Positions 9,188 through 62,497 of a DNA stretch of 64,000 nucleotides are shown piece by piece; the first letter of the stretch is position 1, and the number at the start of each line of letters is the position of its first letter. The stretch is from an uncultured Gammaproteobacteria bacterium. GTDB lineage: Bacteria > Patescibacteriota > Patescibacteriia > Magasanikbacterales > GWA2-37-8. Where the stretch lies: positions 15,595 through 79,594 of the forward strand of contig CAZBWU010000002.1 in NCBI GenBank assembly GCA_964496095.1, read 5' to 3'. A model generated the notes under the pieces. The model ran no database searches and was not told where the DNA came from. It saw only the letters and a program-made list of their open reading frames with translations. The position numbers were made by a program, and so were the translations under genes.

Positions 9188-9302
9188 AATAGTTTTTATT
9201 ATACCATAAAAATGAAATTGTGCCGACTTTATTTATCCAAAGCTTGACGCAGTAATCCATCTATGTTAAATAAACTTCCAGGCCTAAAGGAGGGCCACTA
9301 CT

Positions 9303-9722
9303 ATGACGACTCATGACTGGAGAAAGCGCACGTCGGAGGGCGAGAAGCAACGACTGATCGGCAGGGCGTGGGGGTCGGTGGTGGGCACCTACCTCTGGTA
9401 CGAGATCGGGGAACGCGATCAGATCGTTCGCGAGCGGCCGAACATCATCGCCAACTGCTTCACCGATCACGTGGTGGTGCCCGGTGACATCGAGTGTCAC
9501 CGCAGCAAGTACCTCGCGGGCAACCCATGGCTCCTGCGACTGCGCGGCGGCAATCTCATCTTGCACCCCTCGCTGATCTGGGGGGGAGCAAGGCGCTACT
9601 GCCCGCTCTACCAGATCGGGCACGTGGTCGAGAGCAAGTGCGTGGACGACTGCCTCAACTTCTGGCAACGGATGGACGTCAACGCTCGCGCCGGCGGGCA
9701 CAGCCACAGCGACGACATCTGA
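9303..9722 (+). CDS. Hypothetical protein encoded in a GC-rich island (foreign-looking cassette)
   Basis: 139-aa ORF preceded by a strong SD (aaaggaggg, 7 nt from the ATG). The local GC content is far above the flanking DNA, the amino-acid composition is protein-like (W, Y, C, H rich), and a terminator follows. No recognised domain. Confidence 0.45.
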   Translation: MTTHDWRKRTSEGEKQRLIGRAWGSVVGTYLWYEIGERDQIVRERPNIIANCFTDHVVVPGDIECHRSKYLAGNPWLLRLRGGNLILHPSLIWGGARRYCPLYQIGHVVESKCVDDCLNFWQRMDVNARAGGHSHSDDI

Positions 9723-9866
9723 TCATGCCCTTCGGGGCCAGATCCGCGAGCGGCTCGGGCGCACCATACGACCCGACCACCGCTCAGATCCCAGACCCGA
9801 GCCGTTCACGCAATCTAATAATTAATTTGTTAAATTGCGCGAGCTCGGATCTGTATATAATTTAAA

Positions 9867-9897
9867 AACCCCGCCTTTCACGAAAGGCGGGGTTTTT
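9867..9897. terminator. Bidirectional rho-independent terminator between the GC island and ftsL
   Basis: aaaaaccccgcctttcacgaaaggcggggttttt: a perfect GC stem with A/T runs on both sides. Confidence 0.65.
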
Positions 9898-9918
9898 AGT
9901 ATATTTTTTTATTCAAAC

Positions 9919-12273: not shown

Positions 12274-13629
12274 CTATACCTCAACCTCCAACCCAAAGAT
12301 CACCGGCATTGCCTGTATCCCCAAATCTTCTGTCACTTTTTTTGCCAGAATTGCTGACACCCCCGGTTCGCCATGATTGAACAAAACTTTTTTCGGCTTG
12401 CTTTTATTACTATCTATCCATTTCATTAGTTTGGCTTGATCGCCGTGGGCTGATAAGGCGCCAATGGCTTTGATTTGGCAATGCACCGGAATATGTTCTC
12501 CCATAATTTCTACAGGTGACTGACCGTCCAGAATTCTTCTACCCAATGTATTTTCTGATTGATAACCAATAATAAGCAACGTATTTCTGGCATCCGACAA
12601 ATAACGCATCGCATGATGCATAATACGCCCCCCATTCATCATCCCCGAACCGGCAATAACTATTTTTGGTCCCGGTACATTATTTATTTTTTTTGATTCT
12701 TCTTTGGTTTCCGTCATCACCAGTCCTGGGAAATCAAACAATTCATCGCCATTTTTATATAACTTCGCTGCTTCCACATCGTAATACTTAGGATATTTAA
12801 GATACGTTCTGATAGCTTTGATAGCCAAGGGACTATCCAAAAAAATCGGCACTTTTGGCAAGATATGCTGACGATCAATGAGATTATTTAATTCATAAAT
12901 TAATTCTTGCGTTCGCTCTAGAGAAAAAGATGGGATCATTAGCGTGCCTCCGCGAGCAATCGCTTCGCGAATAAGAGTTGCCAAAATTTCTTGACGTCTA
13001 GTAATAGTTTCATGCAAACGATTACCATAAGTAGATTCACAAACAAGCACATCTATACCGGCTGGGAGGTTTTCGGTTTCTTTTAAGATCGGCACATTGA
13101 CATTGCCAACATCGCCTGAGAACACAACACGCTTTCCTTCGGCTTCAACTTCTACAAACGCAGAACCAAAAATATGACCTGCATCGTGCAGTGTAAAAGA
13201 TACTTCCGGAGTGAGAGTAAATTTTTCATTATATTCAACCGGCTTAAATCTTTCCATTACTTTTGTAATATCACCTTCGTCATACAAAGCTGGAATATTG
13301 TAATGAGTCTGGTTATATAACATGATATGCAAAGCATCTTCCATAATCAGTTCGGCCAGTTCTATCGTCGGAGGGGTGGCATAAAAACGACCTTCATAAC
13401 CGTCTTTGACTAGTAGTGGCAATCGACCCACGTGGTCAAGATGAGCGTGAGTGATAATTACCCCAGATAATTCTGACGGTTTAAAAGAAAGTTGATCTTT
13501 ATTTTTGGCTTCACTAAATTGATTGCCTTGAAACATTCCGCAGTCAACCAAAAAATGCTTAGCACCAACCGTAAACATACTGCAAGAACCTGTGACTTCG
13601 CCTGCCGCGCCGAAGAAAGACAACTTCAT
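12274..13629 (-). CDS. MBL-fold beta-CASP ribonuclease (RNase J-like)
   Basis: HAHLDHVG motif, beta-CASP and MBL motifs, and a conserved N-terminus MKLSFFGAAGEVTGSC. The track ORF extends a further 49 aa upstream through the repeat E3; ATG 13627-13629 is taken as the likely true start. Confidence 0.8.
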   Translation of the reverse strand: MKLSFFGAAGEVTGSCSMFTVGAKHFLVDCGMFQGNQFSEAKNKDQLSFKPSELSGVIITHAHLDHVGRLPLLVKDGYEGRFYATPPTIELAELIMEDALHIMLYNQTHYNIPALYDEGDITKVMERFKPVEYNEKFTLTPEVSFTLHDAGHIFGSAFVEVEAEGKRVVFSGDVGNVNVPILKETENLPAGIDVLVCESTYGNRLHETITRRQEILATLIREAIARGGTLMIPSFSLERTQELIYELNNLIDRQHILPKVPIFLDSPLAIKAIRTYLKYPKYYDVEAAKLYKNGDELFDFPGLVMTETKEESKKINNVPGPKIVIAGSGMMNGGRIMHHAMRYLSDARNTLLIIGYQSENTLGRRILDGQSPVEIMGEHIPVHCQIKAIGALSAHGDQAKLMKWIDSNKSKPKKVLFNHGEPGVSAILAKKVTEDLGIQAMPVIFGLEVEV

Positions 13630-13643
13630 ATAAATAAGGTATC

Positions 13644-13719
13644 TGTCATCCTGAATGAAATGAAGGATCTCTGTCTCAATCACCGCCGGACAGAGATTCT
13701 TCGCAAGCTCAGAATGACA
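13644..13719. repeat. MITE/REP-like palindromic element copy E3, 15 nt upstream of the RNase J-like start
   Basis: tgtcatcctgaatgaaatgaaggatctctgtc ... ccggacagagattcttcgcaagctcagaatgaca. An open reading frame is retained through it. Confidence 0.75.
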
Positions 13720-13821
13720 ATTAAAAAATGCTTTATTGACTGGATAAAGTATACCAAAGAAAATAATATAAAACAAAAAAGCACGCGGGTGCGAGCAATA
13801 ATTTAAAACTTTATTTATGAG

Positions 13822-13850
13822 GGCTGGGTCGAGGAACGGTCGACCCAGCC
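13822..13850 (-). terminator. Hairpin (11-bp perfect stem) downstream of the Cys-rich island gene
   Basis: GGCTGGGTCGA-ggaacgg-TCGACCCAGCC. The downstream tract is only weakly T-rich. Confidence 0.3.
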
Positions 13851-13946
13851 ACGTGGCATGATGGTCTACCGTTCCTAGGTGGTCAGGCTAATAGCCCGAC
13901 CGTTGTTGGCGGTGGCTCAGCCACCCGTCGGCACGCCCCTTGCGGG

Positions 13947-14309
13947 CTAGCCGTGCTTGCAGGCGCAGCCGTTGCCCTTGTCGTCGCAGCCCGTCCAGTG
14001 CAGGCAGAAGGGCACGCAGGTGAAGCCCTGAGCCTCGACCTGCGCACAGCAGTCCGTGTCACCCCCGACACCGCACTCCATGCAGATCGCCGCCCAGAGG
14101 TTGTCACCGCAGTCGATGACGTACACTCCGCGAGCCGCGGCTTCCGGGGTGGAGTTGTCCTCCTCCGTGCAGGCCGCGCCGGTGCAGGACGAGTCGTTGT
14201 CGTTGATGCGGGTGACGAGGGTCACACCGTCATCGGTGGGGACGTCCTCCGTACAACCACCGACGGTGAGGGTGGCGAGGACCGCGAGCAAAGTGGTGAA
14301 GGTACGCAT
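13947..14309 (-). CDS. Secreted (probable lipo)protein, cysteine-rich, encoded in a GC-rich island
   Basis: 120 aa with signal peptide MRTFTTLLAVLATLTVGGC and about 18 Cys in the mature part (CxxC, CC and CxC motifs). SD aggag about 10 nt upstream. The local GC is far above the genome background. Confidence 0.5.
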   Translation of the reverse strand: MRTFTTLLAVLATLTVGGCTEDVPTDDGVTLVTRINDNDSSCTGAACTEEDNSTPEAAARGVYVIDCGDNLWAAICMECGVGGDTDCCAQVEAQGFTCVPFCLHWTGCDDKGNGCACKHG

Positions 14310-14473
14310 TTTTGAAACTGACTCCTGTCAAGAAAACGCCTTCGAGGAAACCTTTCCTCGGTTAGACCCCAACACCTTGCCCTATTTTCCCCTTTTTGTC
14401 AAGGGTTTTATCCCCATTTTTATATGTTTTTTGAGATGTTCAAAAACAAATTTTTCTGCTACAATAATGCAAT

Positions 14474-15145
14474 ATGCGAAGAAACATAAACAATGTTGAA
14501 ATAGTTGAACCACCAATTGGCGAACTGACCAAAAAATACTCCGCTTTCTCGGCTATAAAACGCGCCTGCCTGACTGGTTGCGGTTGTTTGGTTTTTGTGA
14601 TTATTGCTGTTATCATTATTATTCGCCTGGTGATGGGAAGCGGCCCCACCACTCTCAAATCTGTACCAGAAAACTTCCCGTCCGATATACCAGTTTATGA
14701 CCCAGACAGAATCGAACAAATCACTTTTATTTCCGGCAAATACAAAAATCGAGGCATAGAGATTGCGGCCTTATTCCCCAAAATCATCCTCTCTCCCCTG
14801 CTCGTCACTTTAGATAAGGGTTCTCAAAATAACATTACCGCTGATAAAAATACTTCCATCAAAAATTTATGGAACACAATTAGCGCGCCTGTGAGCGACC
14901 ATCGCGACACAGTGCAAATTGAATGGCGCAAGCTGGATGCTGAACCACCGTATGTCATCACCTATTACAAAACCGAATTACAAAAAGAATCATACAAAAT
15001 AGATGTGGAAAGCGAAGGTGATAATGTCCAACAATTTTCTTTTAGTAAGGGCGAAGTAAGCGGATCAATGTATGTGCAGGGCCCGCCTGGGCAAGGATCG
15101 GATTATGCGGTGCTGACTGTCAACTTAATCAATAAACCAGAATAA
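14474..15145 (+). CDS. Hypothetical membrane-anchored protein
   Basis: 223 aa with one N-terminal TM helix (CLVFVIIAVIIIIRLV). No recognisable domain. Confidence 0.4.
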   Translation: MRRNINNVEIVEPPIGELTKKYSAFSAIKRACLTGCGCLVFVIIAVIIIIRLVMGSGPTTLKSVPENFPSDIPVYDPDRIEQITFISGKYKNRGIEIAALFPKIILSPLLVTLDKGSQNNITADKNTSIKNLWNTISAPVSDHRDTVQIEWRKLDAEPPYVITYYKTELQKESYKIDVESEGDNVQQFSFSKGEVSGSMYVQGPPGQGSDYAVLTVNLINKPE

Positions 15146-15153
15146 ATTTCAAC

Positions 15154-15299
15154 TGTCATCCCGAGCGAAGCCGCTCCTGCGGCTGACGAGGGATCTAAAC
15201 ATTAATTTTAATTTAATGAATAGATTCCTCACACCTAAAGGGGGTTCGGAATGACAACGACCAACCGGACAGAGATTCTTCACTCCGTTCAGAATGACA
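15154..15299. repeat. Composite MITE/REP-like elements E4 (full unit plus half unit) between the stop of the previous gene and murJ
   Basis: tgtcatcccgagcgaagccgctcctgcggctgacgagggatct ... ggttcggaatgaca, followed by accaaccggacagagattcttcactccgttcagaatgaca. Confidence 0.75.
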
Positions 15300-15333
15300 A
15301 GGAACAAACCAGATAGATACAAAAAATAAAAAT

Positions 15334-16950
15334 ATGCTCAAAATTCTCAACAGCCAATTAAAATCAATCACCAGCGCCGCCATTATTATTTCTGGCGCGA
15401 CCTTGGTTAGTCGCGTTGTTGGATTAGCTCGGGATAGAATCTTTGCGCACTACTTCGGCGTGGGACCAGTGATGGATTCATATTACGCTGCTTTTAGAAT
15501 TCCGGATTTGATTTATAATCTGCTTATTGTCGGCGCGCTCAGCGCCGGTTTTATCCCTACTTTTACCAAACTATTTAATCAAAGCGAAGACAAAACTCCG
15601 GCCTGGAAATTGGCAAATAATATTTTAAATATCACCGCCATATCTCTGGCTATACTTAGTTTTTTTGGCATGTTATTTACTCCAGCTCTGACAAACCTTA
15701 TTGCTCCCGGATTTGATAACGCCTCCAAAGAACTAGTGACGAGTTTTACTAGAATCATGTTTGGCTCAACTGTTATGCTCGGACTATCTATGGTTATCGG
15801 TGGAGTCCTGCAATCTCTACGTGCTTTTTTCTTATATTCTCTAGCGCCAATTTTTTATAATCTTGGCATTATTGTCGGAGCCGTGGTACTGGTGCCACTG
15901 ATGGGCATAAGAGGCTTGGCTTGGGGTGTGGTCCTCGGTGCTTTTATGCACCTATCACTCCAAATATATAGCGCCTATGCCAATGGTTATAAATGGAAAT
16001 GGTACTTTAATCTCAAAGATCAAAACGCCAAAATAATCGGCAAGCTCATGGTACCACGCACTTTGGGACTAGCTATTAACCAACTCAATCTAGTTATCAT
16101 CACTATCCTTGCTTCTTGGCTTCCGACAGGCAGTGTAACAATTTTTAATTTTGCCAATAACTTGCAAGCTGTGCCTATCGGCATTATCGGCATACCATTT
16201 GCGATCGCAGTATTCCCCGTACTCTCGGCGGCCGCTGCCAAAAACGATATAGATGAATTTATCAAAAATCTATCATCAACAATCAGACAGATTTTATTTT
16301 TAATAATCCCCTGCGCTATTATTTTTCTACTTCTGCGAGCCCAAATCGTACGCGTGATATTAGGCACAGGCAAATTCAATTGGGATGCAACCATAAGCAC
16401 TGGCAACACTTTGGCTTTTTTTGCGCTGAGTATGTTTGCCCAGGCTCTTATCCCGCTAGTGGCTCGCGCTTTCTATGCGCTTGCCAATACCAAAACTCCT
16501 TTTATCATCGGCATCATCTCGGAGCTAACTAGTATTATTGCGGCTCTCTTGCTGATGAAACCGTTTGGCGTCGCTGGCTTGGCTTTGGCATTTTCTATTG
16601 GCTCTATTTTAAATTTAATTATTTTAAGTATATATCTAAGAAATACTCTCACAAAAATTAATGGCGACAAAATCTTTTCTTCTTTTTATAGAATAATTAT
16701 AGCAGCCATCCCAATGGCTCTACTAATACAATATATCAAAGATCCGCTAGCTAAAATTTTTAATCAAGACTATTTTTGGGGTATCCTAGGCCAAGGATTG
16801 GTAGCGGGGCTGGCTGGTCTAGCAATCTATCTTATACTGTGTTATCTTTTGAGGGTGCCAGAGCTACTTCAGATCAAAGAAAGCCTTACGAACCGGTTCC
16901 TACGACCAAAACAAGTCCAAACTCAAGAATCTATTGAAACAAACGCTTAA
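15334..16950 (+). CDS. murJ: Lipid II flippase MurJ (MviN)
   Basis: 538 aa, polytopic, with the conserved MurJ N-terminus (SRVVGLARDRIFAHYFGVGPVMDSYYAAFRIPD). Confidence 0.85.
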   Translation: MLKILNSQLKSITSAAIIISGATLVSRVVGLARDRIFAHYFGVGPVMDSYYAAFRIPDLIYNLLIVGALSAGFIPTFTKLFNQSEDKTPAWKLANNILNITAISLAILSFFGMLFTPALTNLIAPGFDNASKELVTSFTRIMFGSTVMLGLSMVIGGVLQSLRAFFLYSLAPIFYNLGIIVGAVVLVPLMGIRGLAWGVVLGAFMHLSLQIYSAYANGYKWKWYFNLKDQNAKIIGKLMVPRTLGLAINQLNLVIITILASWLPTGSVTIFNFANNLQAVPIGIIGIPFAIAVFPVLSAAAAKNDIDEFIKNLSSTIRQILFLIIPCAIIFLLLRAQIVRVILGTGKFNWDATISTGNTLAFFALSMFAQALIPLVARAFYALANTKTPFIIGIISELTSIIAALLLMKPFGVAGLALAFSIGSILNLIILSIYLRNTLTKINGDKIFSSFYRIIIAAIPMALLIQYIKDPLAKIFNQDYFWGILGQGLVAGLAGLAIYLILCYLLRVPELLQIKESLTNRFLRPKQVQTQESIETNA

Positions 16951-17024
16951 GACTATATGACTGAAAACATTCGCAACTTTTGTATCCCTGTAGTAGAAAC
17001 TAAAGTTTCACTACAGGGCAAGTA

Positions 17025-18845
17025 TTGCCCATTATGAATAATATAAGAAACTTCTGTATCATCGCTCATATAGATCATGGGAAGAGCACAATGGCTGACC
17101 GTCTTTTAGAATTTACCGGCACTGTGGAAAAACGAAACATGCAAGACCAGCTTTTGGATTCTATGGATTTGGAAAGAGAGAGAGGTATCACAATCAAACT
17201 AACACCGGTCCGGATGAACTACACTCTCAACTCAACACCGTATATTCTCAATTTAATTGATACTCCTGGCCATGTTGATTTTAATTACGAAGTTTCCCGT
17301 TCTCTAGCTGCGGTGGAAGGCGCCATCCTACTGGTTGATGCCAGCCAAGGAGTGCAAGCGCAGACTATCGGTAATTTGTATTTGGCGATTGAACAGAATT
17401 TAAAAATTATACCGGTAATCAACAAAATAGACATGCCAGCAGCCAATGTCGAAAAAACTAAAGCTGAAATCTTGCACTTAATAGGTTGCAATCCAGATGA
17501 AATAATTTTGGCATCAGGCAAAACGGGTCAAGGCGTCGAAGAAATTTTAAAAGCCGTTATTGAACGTCTTCCTCCCCCACCAGACACCAGCTCCCAAGCC
17601 ACTCGCGCTTTGATTTTTGATTCTATGTATAATGACTACAAAGGTGTCATCGCCTCTGTAAAAGTAGTCGACGGCGAATTAAAAAAAGGAGACAAAATAT
17701 TTTTAATTGGTACCAGAACTCCGGCAGAAATTTTGGAAGTCGGATACTACAAACCAAAATTCCAATCCACTCCCAAATTATTTAATGGTGAGATTGGCTA
17801 TGTAGTGACGGGTTTAAAAGATCTCAAAGATTGTCGTGTGGGTGATACCATTACCACTTTTACCAAAGATCAAGAAGAAAAAGATATTCATACTTTGGCT
17901 TTGCCTGGTTATAAGGAAGTTAAGCCGATGGTTTATGCGGGTATTTTTCCAAAAGAAGGCGACAACTACCAAATGCTTCGTGATGCCATTGATAAATTAA
18001 AACTAAACGACGCGTCGCTGTTTTATGAGCCTGAACATTCACTCGCTTTAGGTTTTGGTTTCCGCTGTGGCTTCTTAGGGCTATTACATTTGGATATTTT
18101 TCAGGAAAGATTACAGCGCGAATACGATTTAGAAATTATTATTACCGTACCGAGCGTGGCTTACCGAGTAATAGATACAAACCATAAAGAAAAAACCATT
18201 CACAGCCCCCAAGGCATGCCCGACCCAAATCATCTGGAGCAAGTTTTGGAACCTTGGATGAAATTAGACATCATCACCCCTAAGGCGTATGTGGGAAATG
18301 CGATGGGATTGGTCTCCGAACGCAAAGGAAAATATATAAATACAGAATATCTCAGTACCGACACAGACCAGCGTGCTATGTTGCATTATGAGATTCCTCT
18401 TGCCTCGCTTGTTACTGATTTTTATGATAAACTAAAAACCGTTACTTCGGGTTATGGCTCTATGAATTACGAATTTATGGAATACCAACCAACCCACGTA
18501 GTCAGACTAGATATTATGGTAGCCGAGGAACAAGTAGAAGCCTTATCAACTCTTGTTTGGGAAGACTATGCCTACAAAACAGGCAAAAAAATAGTTGAAT
18601 CTCTCAAAGATTCATTACCGAGACAGCAATTTGTCCTAAAAATCCAAGCTACTATTGGCGGAAAAGTTATCGCCTCCGACCGCTTGTCAGCGCTACGCAA
18701 AGACGTGATTGAAACCATGAGTGGTGGTGATTATACCCGTAAACAAAAACTATTACAGAAACAGAAAAAAGGTAAAAAACGAATGTTGGAACATGGAAAA
18801 ATAGATATCCCGCCGGAGACTTATTTGGCGGTTTTAAAGCGTTAA
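17025..18845 (+). CDS. lepA: Translation elongation factor 4 (LepA)
   Basis: G domain (AHIDHGKST, DTPGH, NKID), the LepA-specific C-terminal domain and a 606-aa length. Confidence 0.95.
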   Translation: MPIMNNIRNFCIIAHIDHGKSTMADRLLEFTGTVEKRNMQDQLLDSMDLERERGITIKLTPVRMNYTLNSTPYILNLIDTPGHVDFNYEVSRSLAAVEGAILLVDASQGVQAQTIGNLYLAIEQNLKIIPVINKIDMPAANVEKTKAEILHLIGCNPDEIILASGKTGQGVEEILKAVIERLPPPPDTSSQATRALIFDSMYNDYKGVIASVKVVDGELKKGDKIFLIGTRTPAEILEVGYYKPKFQSTPKLFNGEIGYVVTGLKDLKDCRVGDTITTFTKDQEEKDIHTLALPGYKEVKPMVYAGIFPKEGDNYQMLRDAIDKLKLNDASLFYEPEHSLALGFGFRCGFLGLLHLDIFQERLQREYDLEIIITVPSVAYRVIDTNHKEKTIHSPQGMPDPNHLEQVLEPWMKLDIITPKAYVGNAMGLVSERKGKYINTEYLSTDTDQRAMLHYEIPLASLVTDFYDKLKTVTSGYGSMNYEFMEYQPTHVVRLDIMVAEEQVEALSTLVWEDYAYKTGKKIVESLKDSLPRQQFVLKIQATIGGKVIASDRLSALRKDVIETMSGGDYTRKQKLLQKQKKGKKRMLEHGKIDIPPETYLAVLKR

Positions 18846-19460: not shown

Positions 19461-19538
19461 TGTCATTCTGAGCAAAGCGAATAATCCCTGTCCAACGAAA
19501 CAACCGGACAGAGATCCTTCACTGCGTTCAGGATGACA
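19461..19538. repeat. MITE/REP-like palindromic element copy E5, ending 5 nt before an ATG
   Basis: tgtcattctgagcaaagcgaataatccctgtcc ... ggacagagatccttcactgcgttcaggatgaca. The terminal AGGA may serve as an SD surrogate. Confidence 0.75.
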
Positions 19539-31985: not shown

Positions 31986-32071
31986 TGTCATCCCGAGCGA
32001 AGCCGCTTTTGCGGCTGACGAGGGATCTATACTTTAATGAATAGATTCCTCACACAAGGTTCGGAATGACA
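31986..32071. repeat. MITE/REP-like palindromic element copy E6, between the rplI stop and the pyrG start
   Basis: tgtcatcccgagcgaagccgcttttgcggctgacgagggatct ... ggttcggaatgaca. Confidence 0.75.
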
Positions 32072-40574: not shown

Positions 40575-40750
40575 TGTCATTCTGAATCCCCTCAAGGGGA
40601 TAAACCCCATAAAGAATCCCTGTCTAAACAATGTCATTCCCGCAAAAAGCGGGAATCCAGACAATTCAATTGAACGCTGGATCCCCGATCAAGTCGGGGA
40701 TGACAACGAACAAACCGGACAGAGATCCTTCGCTGTCACTCAGGATGACA
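40575..40750. repeat. Tandem cluster of three or more MITE/REP-like palindromic units (E7) between the dnaJ stop and the ECF sigma start
   Basis: tgtcattctgaatcccctcaaggggataaacccc..., then tgtcattcccgcaaaaagcgggaatccagacaa, then ...gatccccgatcaagtcggggatgacaacgaacaaaccggacagagatccttcgctgtcactcaggatgaca. Confidence 0.7.
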
Positions 40751-54231: not shown

Positions 54232-55271
54232 CCCAAATTATGCAGAAAATCCATCACTATTTTTTCCACATCATCGGCGGTTTTTGCGCCTTCCATCAGC
54301 CTAACCCGAAGTTCTTTAGCTCCGTCAAATCCATTGACATAAGCCTTATAATGTTTTTTCATGATATCAAAATTTTTATAGTCTCCCAGGACTTTTTCAA
54401 ACAAATGTGTATGCTCTACCATCACCATAAGTTTCTCCTCAACACTCGGCGTTGTCATCCTGAACGGAGTGAAGGATCCCTTAAACTCAGACGATAGGGA
54501 TTCTTCATTTCTCTCAGAATGACAACCGGAAAAAAGCCAGGGATTACCGAAAATCCCTCGACCAATCATCACGCCGTCTGCGCCGGTTTGTTTTACTCTT
54601 TCTTCAGCCTCGGATAAATTTTTGACATCACCATTCCCTAAAATCAAAGTCCTACTTTCTGAACTATCATATTTATTTCTAATCTCAACAGCATCTTTGA
54701 CAGTTTCCCAATTGGCAGGAACTTTGGACATCTCTTTGCGCGTACGAGCGTGCACAGTAATTGCAGCTGGTTCAGTTTCCAACAAGTACGGCAACCACTC
54801 AGACAAAGTATTTTTGTTATAACCGATTCTAGTTTTGACTGACACTGGCAAATTACCCGCTCCACGTTTAGTTTCTTTGATAATCTCTTGAGCTAACAAT
54901 GGGTGCTTTATCAGGCACGCTCCCCCGCCCTGTTTTTCTACATTTCTGTCAGGACAGCCCATATTAATATCAATTCCATCAAAACCAAGTTCTTGAATGA
55001 GCAATGCTGTTTTATAAAAATTCTCAGGATTGGAACCAAAAATCTGCGCCACAATTGGACGCTCTGCTTCGCTATACATAAAATCTATCAGAAGTTTGTC
55101 TCGGCCAGCTGAGACCAACCCATCACAAGCTACAAATTCGGTCCACATGACGTCTGGTTTACCGTATTTGGCAATTACACGTCGAAAAGCAGCGTCCGTG
55201 ACATTAGCCATCGGCGCCAAAACAAAAATTGGCTTTTTTAGTTTTTGCCAAAAGCCTGTGTGCATATGCAT
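54228..55271 (-). CDS. dus: tRNA-dihydrouridine synthase (Dus family) carrying an in-frame 24-aa insertion derived from a palindromic repeat
   Basis: TIM-barrel Dus motifs (LAPMANVTD, catalytic Cys region NMGCP, GADGVMIGRGIFGNPWLF). The segment SGCHSERNEESLSSEFKGSFTPFRMTTP is encoded by repeat E8 (54453-54524). Confidence 0.85.
   Translation of the reverse strand: MHMHTGFWQKLKKPIFVLAPMANVTDAAFRRVIAKYGKPDVMWTEFVACDGLVSAGRDKLLIDFMYSEAERPIVAQIFGSNPENFYKTALLIQELGFDGIDINMGCPDRNVEKQGGGACLIKHPLLAQEIIKETKRGAGNLPVSVKTRIGYNKNTLSEWLPYLLETEPAAITVHARTRKEMSKVPANWETVKDAVEIRNKYDSSESRTLILGNGDVKNLSEAEERVKQTGADGVMIGRGIFGNPWLFSGCHSERNEESLSSEFKGSFTPFRMTTPSVEEKLMVMVEHTHLFEKVLGDYKNFDIMKKHYKAYVNGFDGAKELRVRLMEGAKTADDVEKIVMDFLHNLG
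54453..54524. repeat. MITE/REP-like palindromic element copy E8, lying within the dus coding sequence (72 bp, in-frame)
   Basis: tgtcatcctgaacggagtgaaggatccc ... gggattcttcatttctctcagaatgaca. Confidence 0.8.
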
Positions 55272-58395: not shown

Positions 58396-58495
58396 TGTCA
58401 TCTTGAGCGAAGTCGAAAGATCCCTTATACTAAGCTATTTAAAATTCTTGGTTTAAGGGATTCCTACACTACGGTCGGAATGACAAGTACATTGC
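58396..58495. repeat. MITE/REP-like palindromic element copy E10, 20 nt upstream of the typA start
   Basis: tgtcatcttgagcgaagtcgaaagatccc ... gggattcctacactacggtcggaatgaca. Confidence 0.75.
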
Positions 58496-58675: not shown

Positions 58676-61600
58676 TTAAGATTTAGATACGGTCTTTGAA
58701 TTTGCATCCCAGTTTTGTAGCAAGAAACTGTTCATCCACTCAACTGAAGTGAAGGCGTCAGTATCTGCACCATTATCAGACCAAACAAATGCATTTATCG
58801 TATCTACAACAGTTGCATTGTTACCTGATCTTACAACACCACCAGACAATGCTGAGGCATCTTGAACAAACTTAACACTTACACTATCACTGGTTTCAAC
58901 ACCGGTGAAATCAGCACGAACTTCGAAGATCTTAGTTGTGCCTTTAGCGATAGTTGGTAAAGTTGAACTGGTCAAATTAATTGGATATGCAGCAGTAGTT
59001 GAAACTGTGAGAACACCTGAAGTGCCGATCACAGTAGATGGCGCTGTCATATCATACAATTTTACAGTTCCAGCAGTGATCCTCAACTCATTACCACCAT
59101 CAGAATCACCGAAAGTGATATATGGAGTAATGCGAGCCAGAGTCACATCTTCATTAGCATCGGCAGTCACCGAGAATTTGAAGATAGTCACAGTATCAGA
59201 TGCCAAAACAGTACTTGGCAAAGCTAACACACTGACAGTAGGAGCTGATTTTACAACTTGATAAGAGTTGCTAACAGCAGCATCTGCAACAATGTCTACA
59301 TAACCTGACCCACCTTGAGCGTTAAAGTCTCCACTAACAGCGGACAAAGCAAAGGTCAAGGTATCTCCAGTATCAGAACCAATACCGGCAGTAGCGTCAG
59401 TAGCTGTAGAACGCTCACCGATGGCGTTCAACATAGCTTTTACGATCACCGTAGTACCGGAAATAGGAACTTGAATACTCAAGCCACTAAATGTAGTTGT
59501 GCCATTGGCATCAAGACTAGCAGGCTCAGACAAAGCAGTAACTCCGTCTGCGGCGTACAATCTCAAATATTGAACATTGTCGTACGTAGTATTAGCGCTA
59601 CTAACACCTACAGCCAATTTATCAACTGTAAATGCTTCTTTAGTAGCAGTTAATTTAATACGATGCACTTCTTGCTCAGTAGCCAAACCAGCAATCAACA
59701 CTTTTGCTAATGGTTTACCAGTATCAGCGGCAGTAGTAATTGTACCCTGACCTGTAATGGTAATAGCTACAGATGGAGCAGTTGTTCCATTGAGATTATT
59801 GCCAGTGACGGTTGGAACAAAAGTTGCTCCTGTTCCGTCTTCAGCAGTCACATCAGCAGCAGCAAAGGTGAAAGCAAAACGATCATCGTCCCCACCGTAA
59901 GGTGCATTACCAGACACGGTTGCACGAGCGATTACAGTTTTACTGGTCCCGGCTGGAACATTGTAATAACCTCCAACAAATTTGCTGGAATTAAATACCA
60001 CATTACCAGAAGTATCCACTGAAGCTGGTCCAGCAATCTTGGTGTTGCCAACATACAAATTCACTTCAGTAACTAATTCGTTGGCGTCCACTGTACCTTC
60101 TGTTGTGTCTACATAAGTACCATCAGTAGTACCTACATTATCAACATAGACGTTCAATGTTAAAGCAGTTAATTTAACATCGTTGCCTGTACCAGAACCA
60201 GCGGCAAAAATCATTCCTAAAGCATCTACTGTAGAACCCTTCACAACTGTGCGGGATTCAGGAGTAGTAGCCCGAGAAACAGTCAAAGCACTGGAACGAG
60301 TGGTAATAGGATTACTGGCGATAGTGCTCCTTGGCACAATGTCAGTAACGGCCACATCCTTTGAATCTTTAATGACAAATTTAGTTGCGTCAGTAAAATC
60401 AAAGGTTGCGGTGTAAACTACACCGGAAATTTGAGCGGAATTTATATCGGCTACTAAGGCGATATTTCTGGTTGCGCCTTTAGCAATAGTGAAGTATTCG
60501 GTATAGACAAAGGTCAAAGTATCCTCTTCGGATTCAGTGCCAGCCCAACCATCGGCATCAGTGACAGCTTTAGCAGAACCAACAGTTCTACCAGTATCTA
60601 AATCTTTCAACTTCAAATTGCGAAGTAAAAGTGTAGAAGTGCCAGTGTAGTTCTGACCAACACCGGTCTTGAACATACCCCAATCATAGCCACCAGAAGC
60701 AGCTACTTCGTCTGGGTTAACTGTCACAGTCATCTTCTGAATTTCCACAGTGTCGGATTTGGCAGTAATTGCTACTTTGCCTAATTCAACTTCAGTACTA
60801 TCAGTTTTTACATCATGAGCAGCTAAACTCTTGTTGGCAATAGTTACACCACCACCAAGTAAAGTATAATCTTGCTCTAATGAAGCATAGTTGTTAGTAA
60901 CACTAACGCCATAACCATATGATACACCAACAGCTTTAACATCGTTGGTTGAGTCCATATAGAAATCAACTGTATCTCCAGAATCGGCTAAGGCTGAAAC
61001 ATCAGCTTTAACAGTGAAGATTTTGTTGGCGCCATTTAAAATTCTCAAAGGAGAATTTAAAGTAAATGCTACCAAACGACCACTAACTGTTGCGACAGCA
61101 GGAACTGAATTAGTGCCTTGAGTCACAACAAAATTAGACAAGTGACTGGTATCAATGGTACCACCTTGTTTTAAGGTGAAACTATAAACATCGATGTCTT
61201 CTGAGCCAGCAGTTAATTTAAACTGGGCAACAGAAGCGCCAGAATCGCCAACAACCGCAGCACTCAAAGTGCCATTGTCGTCAACAGTAACTGAACCAGC
61301 AGTCTGTGAACCAATAGTAAATGTATTACCAACCAATGGCATAGAACCACCAGCGTTACCAGAAGCCAATTTGGCAGAGATAACGGAGAAAGCACTATCA
61401 CCAACGGAACCGGCAGTTGTCGCCAAGCGCAAAGATAACGCTTTGGTTGTACCAGCTTTAACAGTCAAATTTAATGCACTAAACACCGCTTCGTTAGTAT
61501 CAGAGGCAAAAGTCTTGCCAGTGCCAACGCGATTGGCGCCATCATACAAAGTGACGGTCAAACCAGTCACTGCACCAACGCCAACTCTCTTGATGACAAG

Positions 61601-62497
61601 TTCGTCCAAGATAGAATCATTGGCAGATGGGTTAACAGCGTTGAATTTTAATACATCAATATTTGTAGCGCCCTTTGGCACAGTTTTGCTAGCTGGATTT
61701 TCAGCAGCCAAGGAAACATTTAAAGTTCCACCTGTTTGAGCCACAATAGCTCCGTCTTGAGTTCTATTAGCTAGAACAGATTCCAAAGCGGTAATTTGTG
61801 TACCAACAGTTGTACCAATTAAGTAAGAAGCAGGAACAGCATGTACCCAGCCAGATTTGAATCTGTTTGCAGTCATACCGGTTTCTGTTACTTCACGCAA
61901 CACTTTGTTGGCAGCAACATACCAAGTTTTACCATCTTTACTAACAAGCATACCTTCATGAACTGTACCCATAACATCGGCTCCTCTATTTACATAGTGA
62001 GGCCAGAAAGCATCGGCAACAGTCATTACTTTGTAGTTAGATCCATACAAAGCAGCGGCATCAGCAGAACTGATTTTTGCTAATGAATTTCCTGGTAAAA
62101 CAGCGTACAATTGATCTGAAGAAGTTCTCTTCAAAATGTATGAACCAGGCTGAAAGTTTACAGCACCTGGGTATGCACTAGGAACTGGCAATGAATCAAA
62201 ACATGCTTGAGTTATAGTTGTATAACCTGCATATTGATTAGCAGCAGTGGCTGAAAGACCATTCCAACTCTTAAACTCATCCCCTGAAGGGAAGTAAAGA
62301 ATTTGGTTCATTTTGTTGACAGAGTAAATAGCTGCCTTTCCAGACACTTTTACCATATCACCAGCGGACAAGGTTGGACAAACTGCTGCGTTTGCAGTGT
62401 TTACCAACAAAGGTGCAGCGCCTACGGACCACAACATGGTGGCTCCGACAACGCTAACTGTAAAGATTTTTTTTACAGATTTTAATACAATATTCAT
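58676..62497 (-). CDS. Giant secreted cell-surface protein (1273 aa; T/V/A/G-rich Ig-like beta repeats; S-layer/adhesin-like)
   Basis: Signal peptide (MNIVLKSVKKIFTVSVVGATMLWSVGAAPLLVNTANA). Low-complexity T/V/S/G-rich repeated segments throughout, and no TM beyond the signal. Confidence 0.7.
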   Translation of the reverse strand: MNIVLKSVKKIFTVSVVGATMLWSVGAAPLLVNTANAAVCPTLSAGDMVKVSGKAAIYSVNKMNQILYFPSGDEFKSWNGLSATAANQYAGYTTITQACFDSLPVPSAYPGAVNFQPGSYILKRTSSDQLYAVLPGNSLAKISSADAAALYGSNYKVMTVADAFWPHYVNRGADVMGTVHEGMLVSKDGKTWYVAANKVLREVTETGMTANRFKSGWVHAVPASYLIGTTVGTQITALESVLANRTQDGAIVAQTGGTLNVSLAAENPASKTVPKGATNIDVLKFNAVNPSANDSILDELVIKRVGVGAVTGLTVTLYDGANRVGTGKTFASDTNEAVFSALNLTVKAGTTKALSLRLATTAGSVGDSAFSVISAKLASGNAGGSMPLVGNTFTIGSQTAGSVTVDDNGTLSAAVVGDSGASVAQFKLTAGSEDIDVYSFTLKQGGTIDTSHLSNFVVTQGTNSVPAVATVSGRLVAFTLNSPLRILNGANKIFTVKADVSALADSGDTVDFYMDSTNDVKAVGVSYGYGVSVTNNYASLEQDYTLLGGGVTIANKSLAAHDVKTDSTEVELGKVAITAKSDTVEIQKMTVTVNPDEVAASGGYDWGMFKTGVGQNYTGTSTLLLRNLKLKDLDTGRTVGSAKAVTDADGWAGTESEEDTLTFVYTEYFTIAKGATRNIALVADINSAQISGVVYTATFDFTDATKFVIKDSKDVAVTDIVPRSTIASNPITTRSSALTVSRATTPESRTVVKGSTVDALGMIFAAGSGTGNDVKLTALTLNVYVDNVGTTDGTYVDTTEGTVDANELVTEVNLYVGNTKIAGPASVDTSGNVVFNSSKFVGGYYNVPAGTSKTVIARATVSGNAPYGGDDDRFAFTFAAADVTAEDGTGATFVPTVTGNNLNGTTAPSVAITITGQGTITTAADTGKPLAKVLIAGLATEQEVHRIKLTATKEAFTVDKLAVGVSSANTTYDNVQYLRLYAADGVTALSEPASLDANGTTTFSGLSIQVPISGTTVIVKAMLNAIGERSTATDATAGIGSDTGDTLTFALSAVSGDFNAQGGSGYVDIVADAAVSNSYQVVKSAPTVSVLALPSTVLASDTVTIFKFSVTADANEDVTLARITPYITFGDSDGGNELRITAGTVKLYDMTAPSTVIGTSGVLTVSTTAAYPINLTSSTLPTIAKGTTKIFEVRADFTGVETSDSVSVKFVQDASALSGGVVRSGNNATVVDTINAFVWSDNGADTDAFTSVEWMNSFLLQNWDANSKTVSKS

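What the first reader, a model, noticed from the sequence alone, without database searches (positions are those of the whole stretch)
13800..14330. Second GC-rich island encoding a secreted protein with about 18 cysteines in 120 residues
A second short high-GC block, on the opposite strand, carries a gene with a lipoprotein-like signal peptide (LTVGGC) and a mature domain packed with Cys (CxxC, CC and CxC motifs). An AGGAG SD precedes it and an 11-bp perfect-stem hairpin follows it. Cysteine-rich secreted miniproteins are typical of antimicrobial or defensin-like peptides, metal-binding proteins or effectors. Its presence as a compositionally foreign cassette next to the RNase J-like gene is unusual. 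Two independent GC-rich cassettes in 64 kb suggest repeated gene capture from a high-GC source.
Basis: seen in the sequence. Interest (0 to 1): 0.62.

Follow-up and report, generated by a model that had tools for sequence, protein, structure and literature searches.

The report
Swappable GC-rich cysteine-rich lipoprotein cassette
The GC-rich block is a real gene for a small, cysteine-rich, membrane-anchored surface protein of a previously undescribed family, and it sits in a gene slot that related Magasanikbacteria (tiny uncultured bacteria) fill with quite different genes, including unrelated but equally GC-rich proteins of the same type.

Summary
The island is real: 13815-14312 is 65.5% GC in a 38.7% GC window. 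Three other assemblies reproduce its junctions exactly, so it is not a chimera. The coding strand is minus (13947-14309). The evidence is GC3 of 0.87, a lipobox, a Shine-Dalgarno site and two homologues. The plus-strand ORFs are shadows. The protein has 13 cysteines, not about 18. It matches no Pfam, PHROG or PDB family, and only two true homologues were found, both on 59-62% GC contigs. The host is a Candidatus Magasanikbacteria (CPR) genome. The gene lies in a roughly 640-bp islet between two conserved core genes. In relatives this slot is empty, holds an unrelated gene of ordinary GC content, or holds other small cysteine-rich lipoproteins. Those lipoproteins fall into three classes with no detectable homology, all with GC3 of 0.86-0.96. 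The closest relative keeps the promoter and the hairpin-rich 3' UTR but has a different leader and coding sequence. Strains of another species show a recombination mosaic at the cassette. Best reading: a replaceable cassette for a variable surface lipoprotein. Its function, and why every such cassette stays so GC-rich, are unresolved.

The parts
13800..14440 (-). Whole islet: the segment present in the window but absent from relatives with an empty slot
   Evidence: Comparison with the empty site of L002 and others. Homology resumes at ...TTTGTTTTTG (14441 and above) and at ATTGCTCGCA (13799 and below). The islet is 641 bp and 59% GC.
14378..14415 (-). Conserved promoter block GGGGATAAAACCCTTGACAAAAAGGGGAAAATAGGGCA. 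The -35 TTGACA is at 14397-14402. A putative -10 hexamer spans 14374-14379 and straddles the homology border.
   Evidence: Nearly identical in L103 and recognisably conserved in L006. Its function as a promoter is inferred from the consensus only.
13926..14377 (-). Variable (swapped) module: 5' leader, coding sequence and about 20 nt after the stop codon
   Evidence: No BLASTN similarity to the closest relative L103, although both flanks align (77% and 88% identity overall). Global alignment z is 2.9 here against 11.8 for the 3' UTR.
14343..14360 (-). Leader hairpin CGAGGAAA-GG-TTTCCTCG, followed by AAGG
   Evidence: Folds as a 7-bp stem. L006 has a hairpin at the same place with a different stem sequence. 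A similar CGAG...CTCGAAGG(C/T)G precedes homologue P0005 on L088. The leader as a whole is not significantly structured (z -0.9).
14322..14326 (-). Shine-Dalgarno AGGAG, 12 nt upstream of the ATG
   Evidence: Read directly from the sequence.
13947..14309 (-). Coding sequence of the 120-aa prolipoprotein (stop codon TAG at 13947-13949)
   Evidence: GC1/2/3 is 0.58/0.54/0.87. Periodicity was reached in 0 of 100,000 shuffles. Homologues P0004 and P0005 have E of 2e-5 against 1.8 billion proteins. Nine non-lipobox Cys are invariant among the three proteins.
14253..14309 (-). Signal peptide (residues 1-18) and lipobox Cys19 (LTVGG|C)
   Evidence: Positively charged n-region, hydrophobic core and a lipobox pattern. 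The same architecture occurs in all six cassette proteins.
13959..14186 (-). Cysteine-rich domain (residues 42-117, 12 Cys) that follows an acidic linker
   Evidence: The mature protein has 18 D+E against 4 K+R. The number of non-lipobox Cys is even in all six proteins (12, 10, 10, 6, 8, 8).
13929..13946 (-). Post-stop motif CCCGCAAGGGGCGTGCCG
   Evidence: A 17-nt match at 94% identity in L006 directly after its stop codon. A related motif occurs in L103.
13822..13925 (-). GC-rich structured 3' UTR with three hairpins: 13911-13925, 13881-13901 and 13822-13850 (the 11-bp stem)
   Evidence: RNA fold z is -3.6 with 0 of 200 shuffles as stable. It is homologous to the L103 3' UTR (86 of 99 aligned positions, z 11.8). 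The stems are kept while the loops differ.
13775..13792 (-). Short hairpin GCAC-CCGC-GTGC plus a T-run: a probable weak terminator lying in host-derived sequence just outside the islet
   Evidence: Identical in L103 and partly present at the empty site of L002. It was not called by the terminator scan because the stem has only 4 bp.

Best explanation
The island is a complete small transcription unit on the minus strand, and the gene is the current occupant of a replaceable slot in a Candidatus Magasanikbacteria genome.

The gene product:
- It encodes a 120-aa prolipoprotein.
- After Sec export and lipidation at Cys19, the product would be a roughly 100-residue, strongly acidic protein tethered to the outer face of the cell membrane.
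- Its 12 remaining cysteines most likely form six disulfides.

The slot:
- It lies between the divergently transcribed 223-aa membrane protein gene (14474-15145) and the beta-CASP ribonuclease gene.
- A resident promoter on one side and a hairpin-rich 3' UTR on the other are inherited with the host lineage.
- The leader-plus-coding module between them is exchanged by recombination, so close relatives carry unrelated modules.

Composition and function:
- The module is GC-rich because it comes from a GC-rich gene pool. Its only homologues are on 59-62% GC contigs.
- It is replaced faster than it can drift to host composition.
- The likely role is a variable cell-surface protein under diversifying or frequency-dependent selection, for example contact with the host organism or avoidance of phage or host recognition.

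Shown: gene reality and strand, lipoprotein-type signal, novelty of the family, slot polymorphism, sharp module boundaries, and a recombination mosaic in a related population.

Inferred: lipidation, disulfides, promoter use, the source pool, and the function.
For: Real, not chimeric:
- Logan contigs from two runs (SRR10036080 and SRR10036081) match at 100% across both junctions.
- An NCBI metagenome contig matches at 99.97%, starts inside the island and crosses the p223-side junction.

Coding strand:
- GC3 is 0.87 with 0 of 100,000 shuffles reaching this periodicity.
- There is an SD site, an ATG and a lipobox.
- Homologues P0004 and P0005 have the same length, lipobox and Cys pattern.

Host and synteny:
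- The order beta-CASP, slot, p223, MurJ is conserved in Magasanikbacteria relatives.

Slot polymorphism:
- Empty (about 110-170 bp) in L002, L010-L016, L091, L100 and L101.
- An unrelated 'gene X' in ten loci, a small membrane protein in L004 and a different 184-aa ORF on the opposite strand in L064.
- GC-rich Cys-rich lipoproteins in the window, L103, L003 and L006.
- The distribution is patchy on a core-protein tree.

Three non-homologous classes:
- BLASTP groups window/P0004/P0005 together and L103/L003 together, with L006 alone.
- hhalign aligns only the lipobox region between classes.

Module boundaries:
- Window and L103 share 84% nucleotide identity in beta-CASP (90% at the amino-acid level).
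- They align at 13167-13925 and 14378-14563 but not in between.

Recombination shown directly:
- In the L003 species, L107 is 99.8% identical to L003 in beta-CASP but 94.4% in the cassette.
- The L107 cassette is 100% identical to that of L109, whose beta-CASP is only 91.8% identical to that of L107.

Not hypermutation:
- The mature domain is nearly invariant within that species.

GC-richness belongs to the cassette, not the slot:
- Cassette GC3 minus core GC3 is +0.49 to +0.59.
- For the other residents of the same slot the difference is 0 to +0.19.

Disulfide inference:
- All six proteins have an even number of non-lipobox Cys.

No mobile-element genes:
- No integrase, transposase or reverse transcriptase in the 64 kb.
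Against: - If the module is exchanged through flanks that are inherited within the low-GC clade, the donors should be low-GC relatives. The cassettes would then be long-term residents and should have lost their GC excess. Yet all four are at GC3 0.86-0.96 with no intermediates.
- P0004 is also the most GC3-rich of the 13 genes examined on its own 59% GC contig. This hints at a gene-intrinsic cause rather than simple import.
- The taxonomy of the GC-rich contigs is unknown.
- Lgt, LspA and a disulfide-forming system were not found in the window and cannot be checked genome-wide.
- There are no expression data.
- The putative -10 hexamer (CAAGGT) is poor.
- The function rests on analogy only.
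Confidence: 0.6

Rival explanations
1. A single recent horizontal transfer from an ordinary high-GC bacterium such as an actinobacterium, landing by chance in an intergenic region. On this view there is no slot or cassette system, and the gene may be a passenger of little consequence.
For: - Extreme compositional contrast with the host.
- The only homologues lie on 59-62% GC contigs.
- No mobility genes are nearby.
Against: - The same slot, in the same orientation, carries GC-rich Cys-rich lipoprotein genes in four genomes.
- The promoter and 3' UTR are shared with L103 while the coding sequence is not.
- There are no homologues in any well-sampled high-GC phylum among billions of proteins.
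- A recombination mosaic is seen at the cassette in a related population.
Confidence: 0.1
2. The cassettes are long-term residents of low-GC Magasanikbacteria, and their GC3 of about 0.9 is actively maintained. Candidate causes are GC-biased gene conversion from unlinked donor copies (a vls-like or pilin-like variation system) or selection on the mRNA or DNA itself.
For: - All four cassettes are equally GC-rich with no ameliorated intermediates. The flanks that bound the exchange are clade-inherited.
- P0004 exceeds the GC3 of the other 12 genes examined on its contig.
- The island-1 orthologues in the window and L006 keep about 86% GC at four-fold sites, although core four-fold sites are saturated.
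- In Borrelia, the vls lipoprotein cassettes are 49% GC in a 28.6% GC genome and this is thought to be maintained for gene conversion (PMC11499132).
Against: - No second copy or silent cassette lies within 64 kb.
- Island GC skew is about 0, whereas vls has 0.52.
- There are few G-runs.
- Other residents of the same slot are not GC-enriched, so a slot-wide biased-conversion hotspot is unlikely.
- Polarised singleton counts in the L003 population are 4 S-to-W against 4 W-to-S, too few to decide.
Confidence: 0.18
3. Assembly chimera or misjoin: GC-rich reads from another organism were spliced into a low-GC contig.
For: Abrupt composition change; the genome is metagenome-derived.
Against: - Logan assemblies of two sequencing runs reproduce both junctions exactly, and an NCBI metagenome contig (99.97% identical) reproduces the p223-side junction.
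- Equivalent GC-rich inserts sit at the same site in MAGs and contigs from unrelated studies.
- The promoter and 3' UTR inside the islet are homologous to those of relatives.
Confidence: 0.01
4. The block is not this gene. It is either a structured non-coding RNA or a gene on the plus strand (13953-14315 or 14056-14499), as two automatic annotations called it.
For: - All frames are fairly open in this composition (P about 0.05 per frame).
- An NCBI metagenome record and one Logan contig call plus-strand ORFs.
- The 3' part folds stably.
Against: - Strong three-base periodicity is in phase with the minus ORF only, and the plus ORF shows the mirror pattern.
- There is no Rfam family match.
- The minus-strand product has homologues, a lipobox and a conserved Cys pattern. 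The plus-strand products have no significant Pfam match (best E 0.1) and the amino-acid make-up typical of antisense GC-rich DNA.
Confidence: 0.02
5. Same gene, different function: a metal-sequestering (metallothionein-like) lipoprotein, or a released antimicrobial or toxin peptide, rather than a variable surface recognition protein.
For: - 12% Cys in the mature part, with CxxC, CC and CxC motifs.
- It is small and exported.
Against: - An even Cys count in 6 of 6 proteins and the extracytoplasmic location favour disulfides.
- There are only two His residues.
- No similarity to metallothionein, bacteriocin or defensin families.
- There is no adjacent immunity, transporter or maturation gene.
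- Lipid anchoring argues against a freely diffusing peptide.
Confidence: 0.12

Closest known systems
Replacement-type flexible genomic islands or islets (the same chromosomal position between conserved core genes holds different, functionally equivalent surface-related genes in different strains, exchanged by homologous recombination in the flanks; concept from marine and pathogen population genomics, recalled from my own knowledge)
   Same: - A fixed position between conserved core genes.
- Alternative, non-homologous occupants that share one architecture: small Cys-rich lipoproteins.
- Patchy distribution on the host tree.
- A recombination mosaic at the locus.
   Different: - It is a single-gene islet of about 0.6 kb rather than a multi-gene glycosylation or O-antigen cluster.
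- The exchanged unit begins at the transcription start region and ends just after the stop codon, inside a conserved promoter and 3' UTR frame.
- Every lipoprotein allele is extremely GC-rich relative to the host.
Borrelia vlsE/vls antigenic variation locus
   Same: - A surface lipoprotein gene whose variable part is far more GC-rich than its low-GC genome (49% against 28.6%; PMC11499132).
- Variation arises by recombination.
   Different: - No silent cassette array or any second copy within 64 kb.
- No GC skew.
- Variation is seen between strains and species, not shown within a clone.
- The proteins are unrelated, and the alleles here are not even homologous to each other.
Integron gene cassettes
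   Same: - A compact leader-plus-coding-sequence unit that depends on a resident upstream promoter.
- It is followed by a hairpin-forming 3' element.
- Different cargo is found at the same site in different genomes.
   Different: - No IntI-type integrase in 64 kb.
- No attC R''/R' core-site pair in the 3' region.
- It is a single unit rather than an array.
- The hairpins are inherited with the host flank rather than moving with the cargo.
Bacterial lipoproteins (Lgt/LspA substrates; PROSITE PS51257-type lipobox)
   Same: An n-h-c signal peptide with [LVI..][..][AGS]C, with the Cys at position 19-25, in all six proteins.
   Different: The mature domains belong to no described lipoprotein family. 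Lipidation is unverified.
Diversity-generating retroelement (DGR) targets, which are common in CPR genomes (own knowledge)
   Same: A hypervariable exported protein with GC-rich hairpins just downstream of the variable part.
   Different: - No template repeat and no reverse transcriptase in the window.
- The whole coding sequence and leader differ, not an adenine-specific patch.
- The mature domain is nearly invariant within a species.

Membership tests
Bacterial lipoprotein (Lgt/LspA pathway) | N-terminal signal peptide with a positively charged n-region, a hydrophobic h-region and a lipobox ending in the invariant Cys | tested here: met
   MRTFTTLLAVLATLTVGG|C, Cys19. The pattern is met in the window protein and in all five related or co-located proteins.
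Bacterial lipoprotein (Lgt/LspA pathway) | The genome encodes Lgt and LspA, and the protein is actually lipidated | not testable with these tools
   No LGT or Peptidase_A8 hit among the roughly 60 window genes scanned. The rest of the genome is not available and there is no biochemical evidence.
Horizontally acquired gene (compositional and phylogenetic criteria) | Composition far from the host, patchy distribution among close relatives, and similarity relationships that conflict with the host phylogeny | tested here: met
   - GC3 is 0.87 against 0.38 for the core genes.
- The slot is empty or filled differently in relatives.
- The window protein groups with proteins from 59-62% GC contigs, while its closest relative L103 carries the class found in L003.
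Replacement flexible genomic islet | The same site between conserved core genes holds different genes in related genomes, with homology breaking sharply at the islet borders | tested here: met
   Non-homology between the window and L103 is confined to 13926-14377.
Replacement flexible genomic islet | Exchange by homologous recombination in the flanks | tested here: inconclusive
   A recombination mosaic was shown in the L003 species (L107, L109 and L003). That is between similar alleles. A swap between classes was not caught in the act.
Integron gene cassette | An attC site (R''-L''...L'-R' with a GTTRRRY core) at the 3' end, with an IntI integrase and attI nearby | tested here: not met
   The only GTTRRRY/RYYYAAC match is a single site in the leader, and there is none in the 3' region. 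No integrase in the 64 kb.
DGR variable protein | A template repeat / variable repeat pair that differs at adenines, with a reverse transcriptase nearby | tested here: not met
   No repeat of the island exists anywhere in the window. The only RT-like hit is an RNase H (RVT_3/RNase_H). The test is limited to 64 kb.
vls-like antigenic variation system | An expression site plus an array of silent cassettes about 90% identical to it, with high GC and strong GC skew with G-runs | tested here: not met
   High GC is met. There are no silent copies in the window, the skew is about 0 and G-runs are few. Silent copies elsewhere in the genome cannot be excluded.
Known cysteine-rich peptide, metallothionein or bacteriocin families | A significant match to a curated family profile or to a solved structure | tested here: not met
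   Pfam, PHROGs and PDB profile searches were negative. The AF2 models are too poor for fold comparison (pLDDT 42 and 46).
Structured non-coding RNA | An Rfam family match, or structure without coding periodicity | tested here: not met
   No Rfam hit at the gathering threshold. Strong codon periodicity is present. Only the 3' UTR is significantly structured (z -3.6).

The most novel reading that the evidence does not exclude
The cysteine-rich lipoprotein cassettes (and perhaps island 1) are not recent imports. They would be a special class of long-resident genes in low-GC CPR genomes whose GC3 of about 0.9 is actively maintained. Possible causes are repeated GC-biased gene conversion from unlinked donor copies in a programmed surface-variation system, or selection on the nucleic acid itself. 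That would make this a CPR counterpart of the Borrelia vls principle, built from unrelated parts.
Probability: 0.18. Interest if true: 0.8.

Novelty: new variant of a known kind. Interest (0 to 1): 0.55.

Why it matters
CPR/Patescibacteria are thought to live attached to other cells, yet almost nothing is known about the surface molecules that mediate or diversify that contact.

This locus supplies three things:
- A concrete, easily tracked candidate: a one-gene slot with a fixed promoter and 3' UTR frame.
- Interchangeable, disulfide-rich lipoprotein cargo, so strain-level surface variation could be followed in metagenomes.
- A sharp compositional puzzle. Cargo from three classes with no detectable homology is uniformly at GC3 of about 0.9 in 38% GC genomes. 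This could inform how fast such genes turn over, or whether GC can be maintained locally in bacteria.

There is also a practical point. Gene callers place this gene on the wrong strand or omit it, so such cassettes are likely under-annotated in CPR genomes.

Tried and rejected
- **Family and structure searches.** Pfam, PHROGs and PDB profile searches found nothing for the window protein or for the other cassette proteins P0004, P0005, P0008 and P0009; Pfam also found nothing for the L103 protein. Two AlphaFold runs were unusable (3-sequence alignment, pLDDT 41.8; Cys-rich domain alone, pLDDT 45.5), so no fold search was run.
- **Word-indexed protein searches.** Both the single-sequence and the profile search returned only the query or input sequences. 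The exhaustive HMMER search gave two true homologues plus three low-complexity or repeat false positives, P0003, P0006 and P0007.
- **Degenerate-pattern locus search.** Viral contig scans were negative.
- **DGR hypothesis.** Rejected within the window: there is no template repeat and no reverse transcriptase, and the mature domain is conserved within a species.
- **Integron hypothesis.** Rejected: there are no attC core sites and no integrase.
- **Slot-wide GC-biased conversion hotspot.** Not supported: other residents of the slot have near-host GC3.
- **Distant homology between the three lipoprotein classes.** Not supported by hhalign, which aligns only the lipobox region.
- **Phage or mobile context for the homologues on L082 and L088.** None was found.
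- **Taxonomy of L082 and L088.** It could not be established. The only lead is a Band_7 protein 57% identical to one on L029, a 0.95-Mb contig at 55% GC.
- **Polarised substitution counts in the L003 population.** Too few to decide (4 against 4).
- **Literature searches.** Three searches for a described CPR cysteine-rich or GC-rich lipoprotein locus found nothing relevant.
Full report
**1. The observation**

The block is real and sharply bounded.
- Sliding windows of 300 nt reach 0.67 GC at 13850-14299 against about 0.40 on either side.
- The core 13815-14312 is 65.5% GC in a window of 38.7% GC.
- Only one other stretch of the 64 kb exceeds 50% GC, at about 9260-9870, the 'first island'.

The 120-aa ORF on the minus strand (13947-14309) exists.
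- It starts with MRTFTTLLAVLATLTVGG|C.
- It contains 13 cysteines, not about 18. One is the lipobox Cys19 and 12 lie in the mature part. These include CxxC, CC and CxC motifs.
- AGGAG lies 12 nt upstream of the ATG (14322-14326).
- The perfect 11-bp hairpin is at 13822-13850, about 97 nt after the stop codon and without a following U-run.

**2. Artefact and wrong-strand tests**

The junctions are reproduced in other assemblies.
- Independent Logan assemblies of two sequencing runs reproduce both junctions at 100% identity (window 13646-14927 and 13646-15180).
- An NCBI metagenome contig is 99.97% identical over 13891-17695.

The coding strand is minus.
- GC by codon position in the minus frame is 0.58/0.54/0.87. 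Host genes have GC3 of 0.31-0.43.
- None of 100,000 shuffles reaches this periodicity in any phase.
- The plus-strand 120-aa ORF has the mirror pattern (GC1 0.85), which marks it as a shadow ORF.
- ORF length alone is weak evidence here. A 120-codon open frame has P of about 0.05 in this composition.
- Two automatic annotations put the gene on the plus strand, and the NCBI source lacks the minus-strand protein.
- Rfam finds nothing in the block.

**3. What the protein is**

Known families give nothing.
- There is no Pfam, PHROG or PDB-profile match.
- Word-indexed searches of 5.8 billion proteins return only the protein itself.
- Two AlphaFold attempts gave pLDDT of 42 and 46, so no fold comparison was made.

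The exhaustive HMMER search of 1.8 billion representatives gives two genuine homologues.
- They are P0004 (121 aa) and P0005 (120 aa), at E of about 2e-5 and about 30-32% identity over the full length.
- Both have the same lipobox position. Nine non-lipobox cysteines are invariant among the three.
- Both lie on GC-rich contigs (59% and 62% GC) of unknown taxonomy. P0004 has the highest GC3 (0.95) of the 13 genes examined on its contig.

The mature window protein is strongly acidic (18 D+E against 4 K+R). All six cassette proteins discussed below have an even number of non-lipobox cysteines (12, 10, 10, 6, 8, 8). This fits an oxidised, disulfide-bonded extracytoplasmic domain.

**4. Genomic context: a replaceable slot**

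The window is a run of housekeeping genes.
- In order they include DnaB, RecR, L21, MraY-like, ClpC-like, [island 1], FtsL, RsmH, MraZ, beta-CASP RNase, [this islet], a 223-aa membrane protein ('p223'), MurJ, LepA, RecJ, glycosyltransferases, DnaK/DnaJ/GrpE/HrcA and YidC.
- There is no integrase, transposase or reverse transcriptase.
- Relatives of the beta-CASP protein identify the host as Candidatus Magasanikbacteria, part of the CPR.
- The order beta-CASP, gap, p223, MurJ is conserved.

The gap differs between relatives.
- It is about 110-170 bp (empty) in L002, L010-L016, L091, L100 and L101.
- It holds a 170-250-aa 'gene X' of near-host composition in ten loci.
- It holds a 122-aa membrane protein in L004.
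- It holds a different 184-aa ORF on the opposite strand in L064.
- It holds small GC-rich Cys-rich lipoprotein genes, in the same orientation, in the window, L103, L003 and L006.
- A rough core-protein tree shows this distribution is patchy.
- Comparison with the empty sites places the islet at about 13800-14440.

**5. The cassette and its frame**

L103, a groundwater metagenome contig, is the closest relative.
- Its beta-CASP is 90% identical at the amino-acid level and 84% at the nucleotide level.
- It aligns with the window over 13167-13925 and 14378-14563 but not in between.

The conserved frame has two parts.
- One is the promoter block GGGGATAAAACCCTTGACAAAAAGGG..AATAGGGCA.
- The other is the GC-rich 3' UTR with three hairpins. 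The stems are kept and the loops differ. The fold z is -3.6 and the alignment z is 11.8.

The non-homologous segment is the leader plus the coding sequence plus about 20 nt. Its global-alignment z is only 2.9.

The L103 product belongs to a different class.
- It is 32% identical to the L003 protein (E 5e-18) and has no similarity to the window protein.
- Profile-profile comparison aligns only the lipobox region between the three classes.
- The pattern is therefore module replacement, not in-place hypermutation.

Other shared elements:
- L006 shares with the window the promoter, a leader hairpin with a different stem sequence, and a 17-nt post-stop motif.
- A similar leader hairpin, CGAG..CTCGAAGG(C/T)G, precedes P0005 on its GC-rich contig. 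This suggests, without proving it, that the leader travels with the coding sequence.

**6. Recombination and stability within a species**

Four contigs of the L003 species are collinear through the cassette.
- L107 is 99.8% identical to L003 in beta-CASP but 94.4% in the cassette and 77.7% just upstream.
- The L107 cassette is 100% identical to that of L109, whose beta-CASP is only 91.8% identical to that of L107.
- This is a recombination mosaic centred on the cassette.
- The mature domain is almost invariant among these alleles. Most changes are in the signal peptide. This argues against a DGR-like mutator.
- No template repeat of the island exists in the window.

**7. The GC problem**

- Cassette GC3 exceeds core GC3 by +0.49 to +0.59 in all four genomes.
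- Other residents of the same slot exceed it by only 0 to +0.19.
- GC-richness is therefore a property of the cargo, not of the location.

The simplest account is import from a GC-rich pool, with turnover faster than amelioration. This is consistent with the GC-rich contigs that carry the homologues.

Four facts remain uncomfortable for this account.
- The frame that bounds the exchange is inherited within the low-GC clade.
- There are no partly ameliorated cassettes.
- P0004 is more GC3-rich than the other 12 genes examined on its own GC-rich contig.
- The island-1 orthologues of the window and L006 keep about 86% GC at four-fold sites, although core four-fold sites are saturated.

Active maintenance of GC therefore cannot be excluded. 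The Borrelia vls cassettes are a precedent: 49% GC in a 28.6% GC genome (PMC11499132). However, the island lacks the vls GC skew, G-runs and nearby silent copies.

**8. Verdict**

Its interpretation of a foreign cassette for a secreted Cys-rich miniprotein is partly right.

What is actually there is one allele of a replaceable single-gene cassette. It encodes a novel, probably disulfide-rich, acidic surface lipoprotein, framed by a conserved promoter and a structured 3' UTR, in Magasanikbacteria.

The function is inferred, not shown. My working view is a variable surface protein involved in host or phage interactions. The uniform extreme GC content of all the cassette classes is the most interesting unexplained feature.

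Noticed in passing
window 9261-9865 (ORF 9303-9722, plus strand): The 'first island' is also a genuine GC-rich gene.
- It encodes a 139-aa protein with GC3 of 0.86 and no signal peptide. It is an ORFan in 5.8 billion proteins.
- L006 has a 68%-identical orthologue at the same FtsL|p117 slot.
- The slot is empty in L003, L004, L064 and L010.
- Four-fold sites are 62% identical and still about 86% GC in both copies.
   Followed up: partly
window 13645-13718; also 612-713, 2591-2683, 15155-15298, 19462-19537, 31987-32070, 40576-40749, 54454-54523, 58397-58484: A dispersed palindromic intergenic repeat of about 75 nt, GTCATYCTGAR...YTCAGRATGAC. There are 24 half-sites against 6 expected by chance. 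One copy lies between the islet and the beta-CASP start codon, and a tandem pair lies between p223 and murJ.
   Followed up: partly
L105 (NCBI JACCDK011240574.1) and L106 (Logan SRR10036081), equivalent to window 13891-15180: Automatic gene calls place the islet gene on the plus strand (140-aa and 120-aa shadow ORFs). The true minus-strand protein is absent from the NCBI source.
   Followed up: yes
L005, L089, L092-L096, L098, L102, L104 (slot between p223 and beta-CASP): The commonest occupant of the slot is a fast-evolving 170-250-aa protein family ('gene X'). It carries ...PERVRA... and (I/V)PG(I/L/M) motifs, some members have an N-terminal TM helix, and there is no Pfam match. GC3 is close to that of the host.
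   Followed up: partly
L107, L108, L109 compared with L003 4667-6635: Strain-level recombination mosaic. L107 matches L003 at 99.8% in beta-CASP, but its cassette is identical to that of L109.
   Followed up: yes
L082 2992-6366: The 59% GC contig that carries homologue P0004 is itself compositionally mosaic. GC3 ranges from 0.61 to 0.95. An ECF sigma factor gene, a 276-aa lipoprotein with weak metallopeptidase hits, and P0004 are the most GC3-rich genes.
   Followed up: no
loci L004, L006, L014, L017, L034, L035 and others (genome contigs titles): Several contigs with clear Magasanikbacteria/CPR synteny carry implausible organism titles, such as uncultured Gammaproteobacteria, Udaeobacter and Woesearchaeota.
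   Followed up: no
window 58676-62497 (minus strand): A 1273-aa ORF with no Pfam match at E of 1e-4 or better.
   Followed up: no
window 9863-9898: A 36-nt near-perfect palindrome (94%) immediately downstream of the island-1 ORF. It is probably the terminator of that gene.
   Followed up: no
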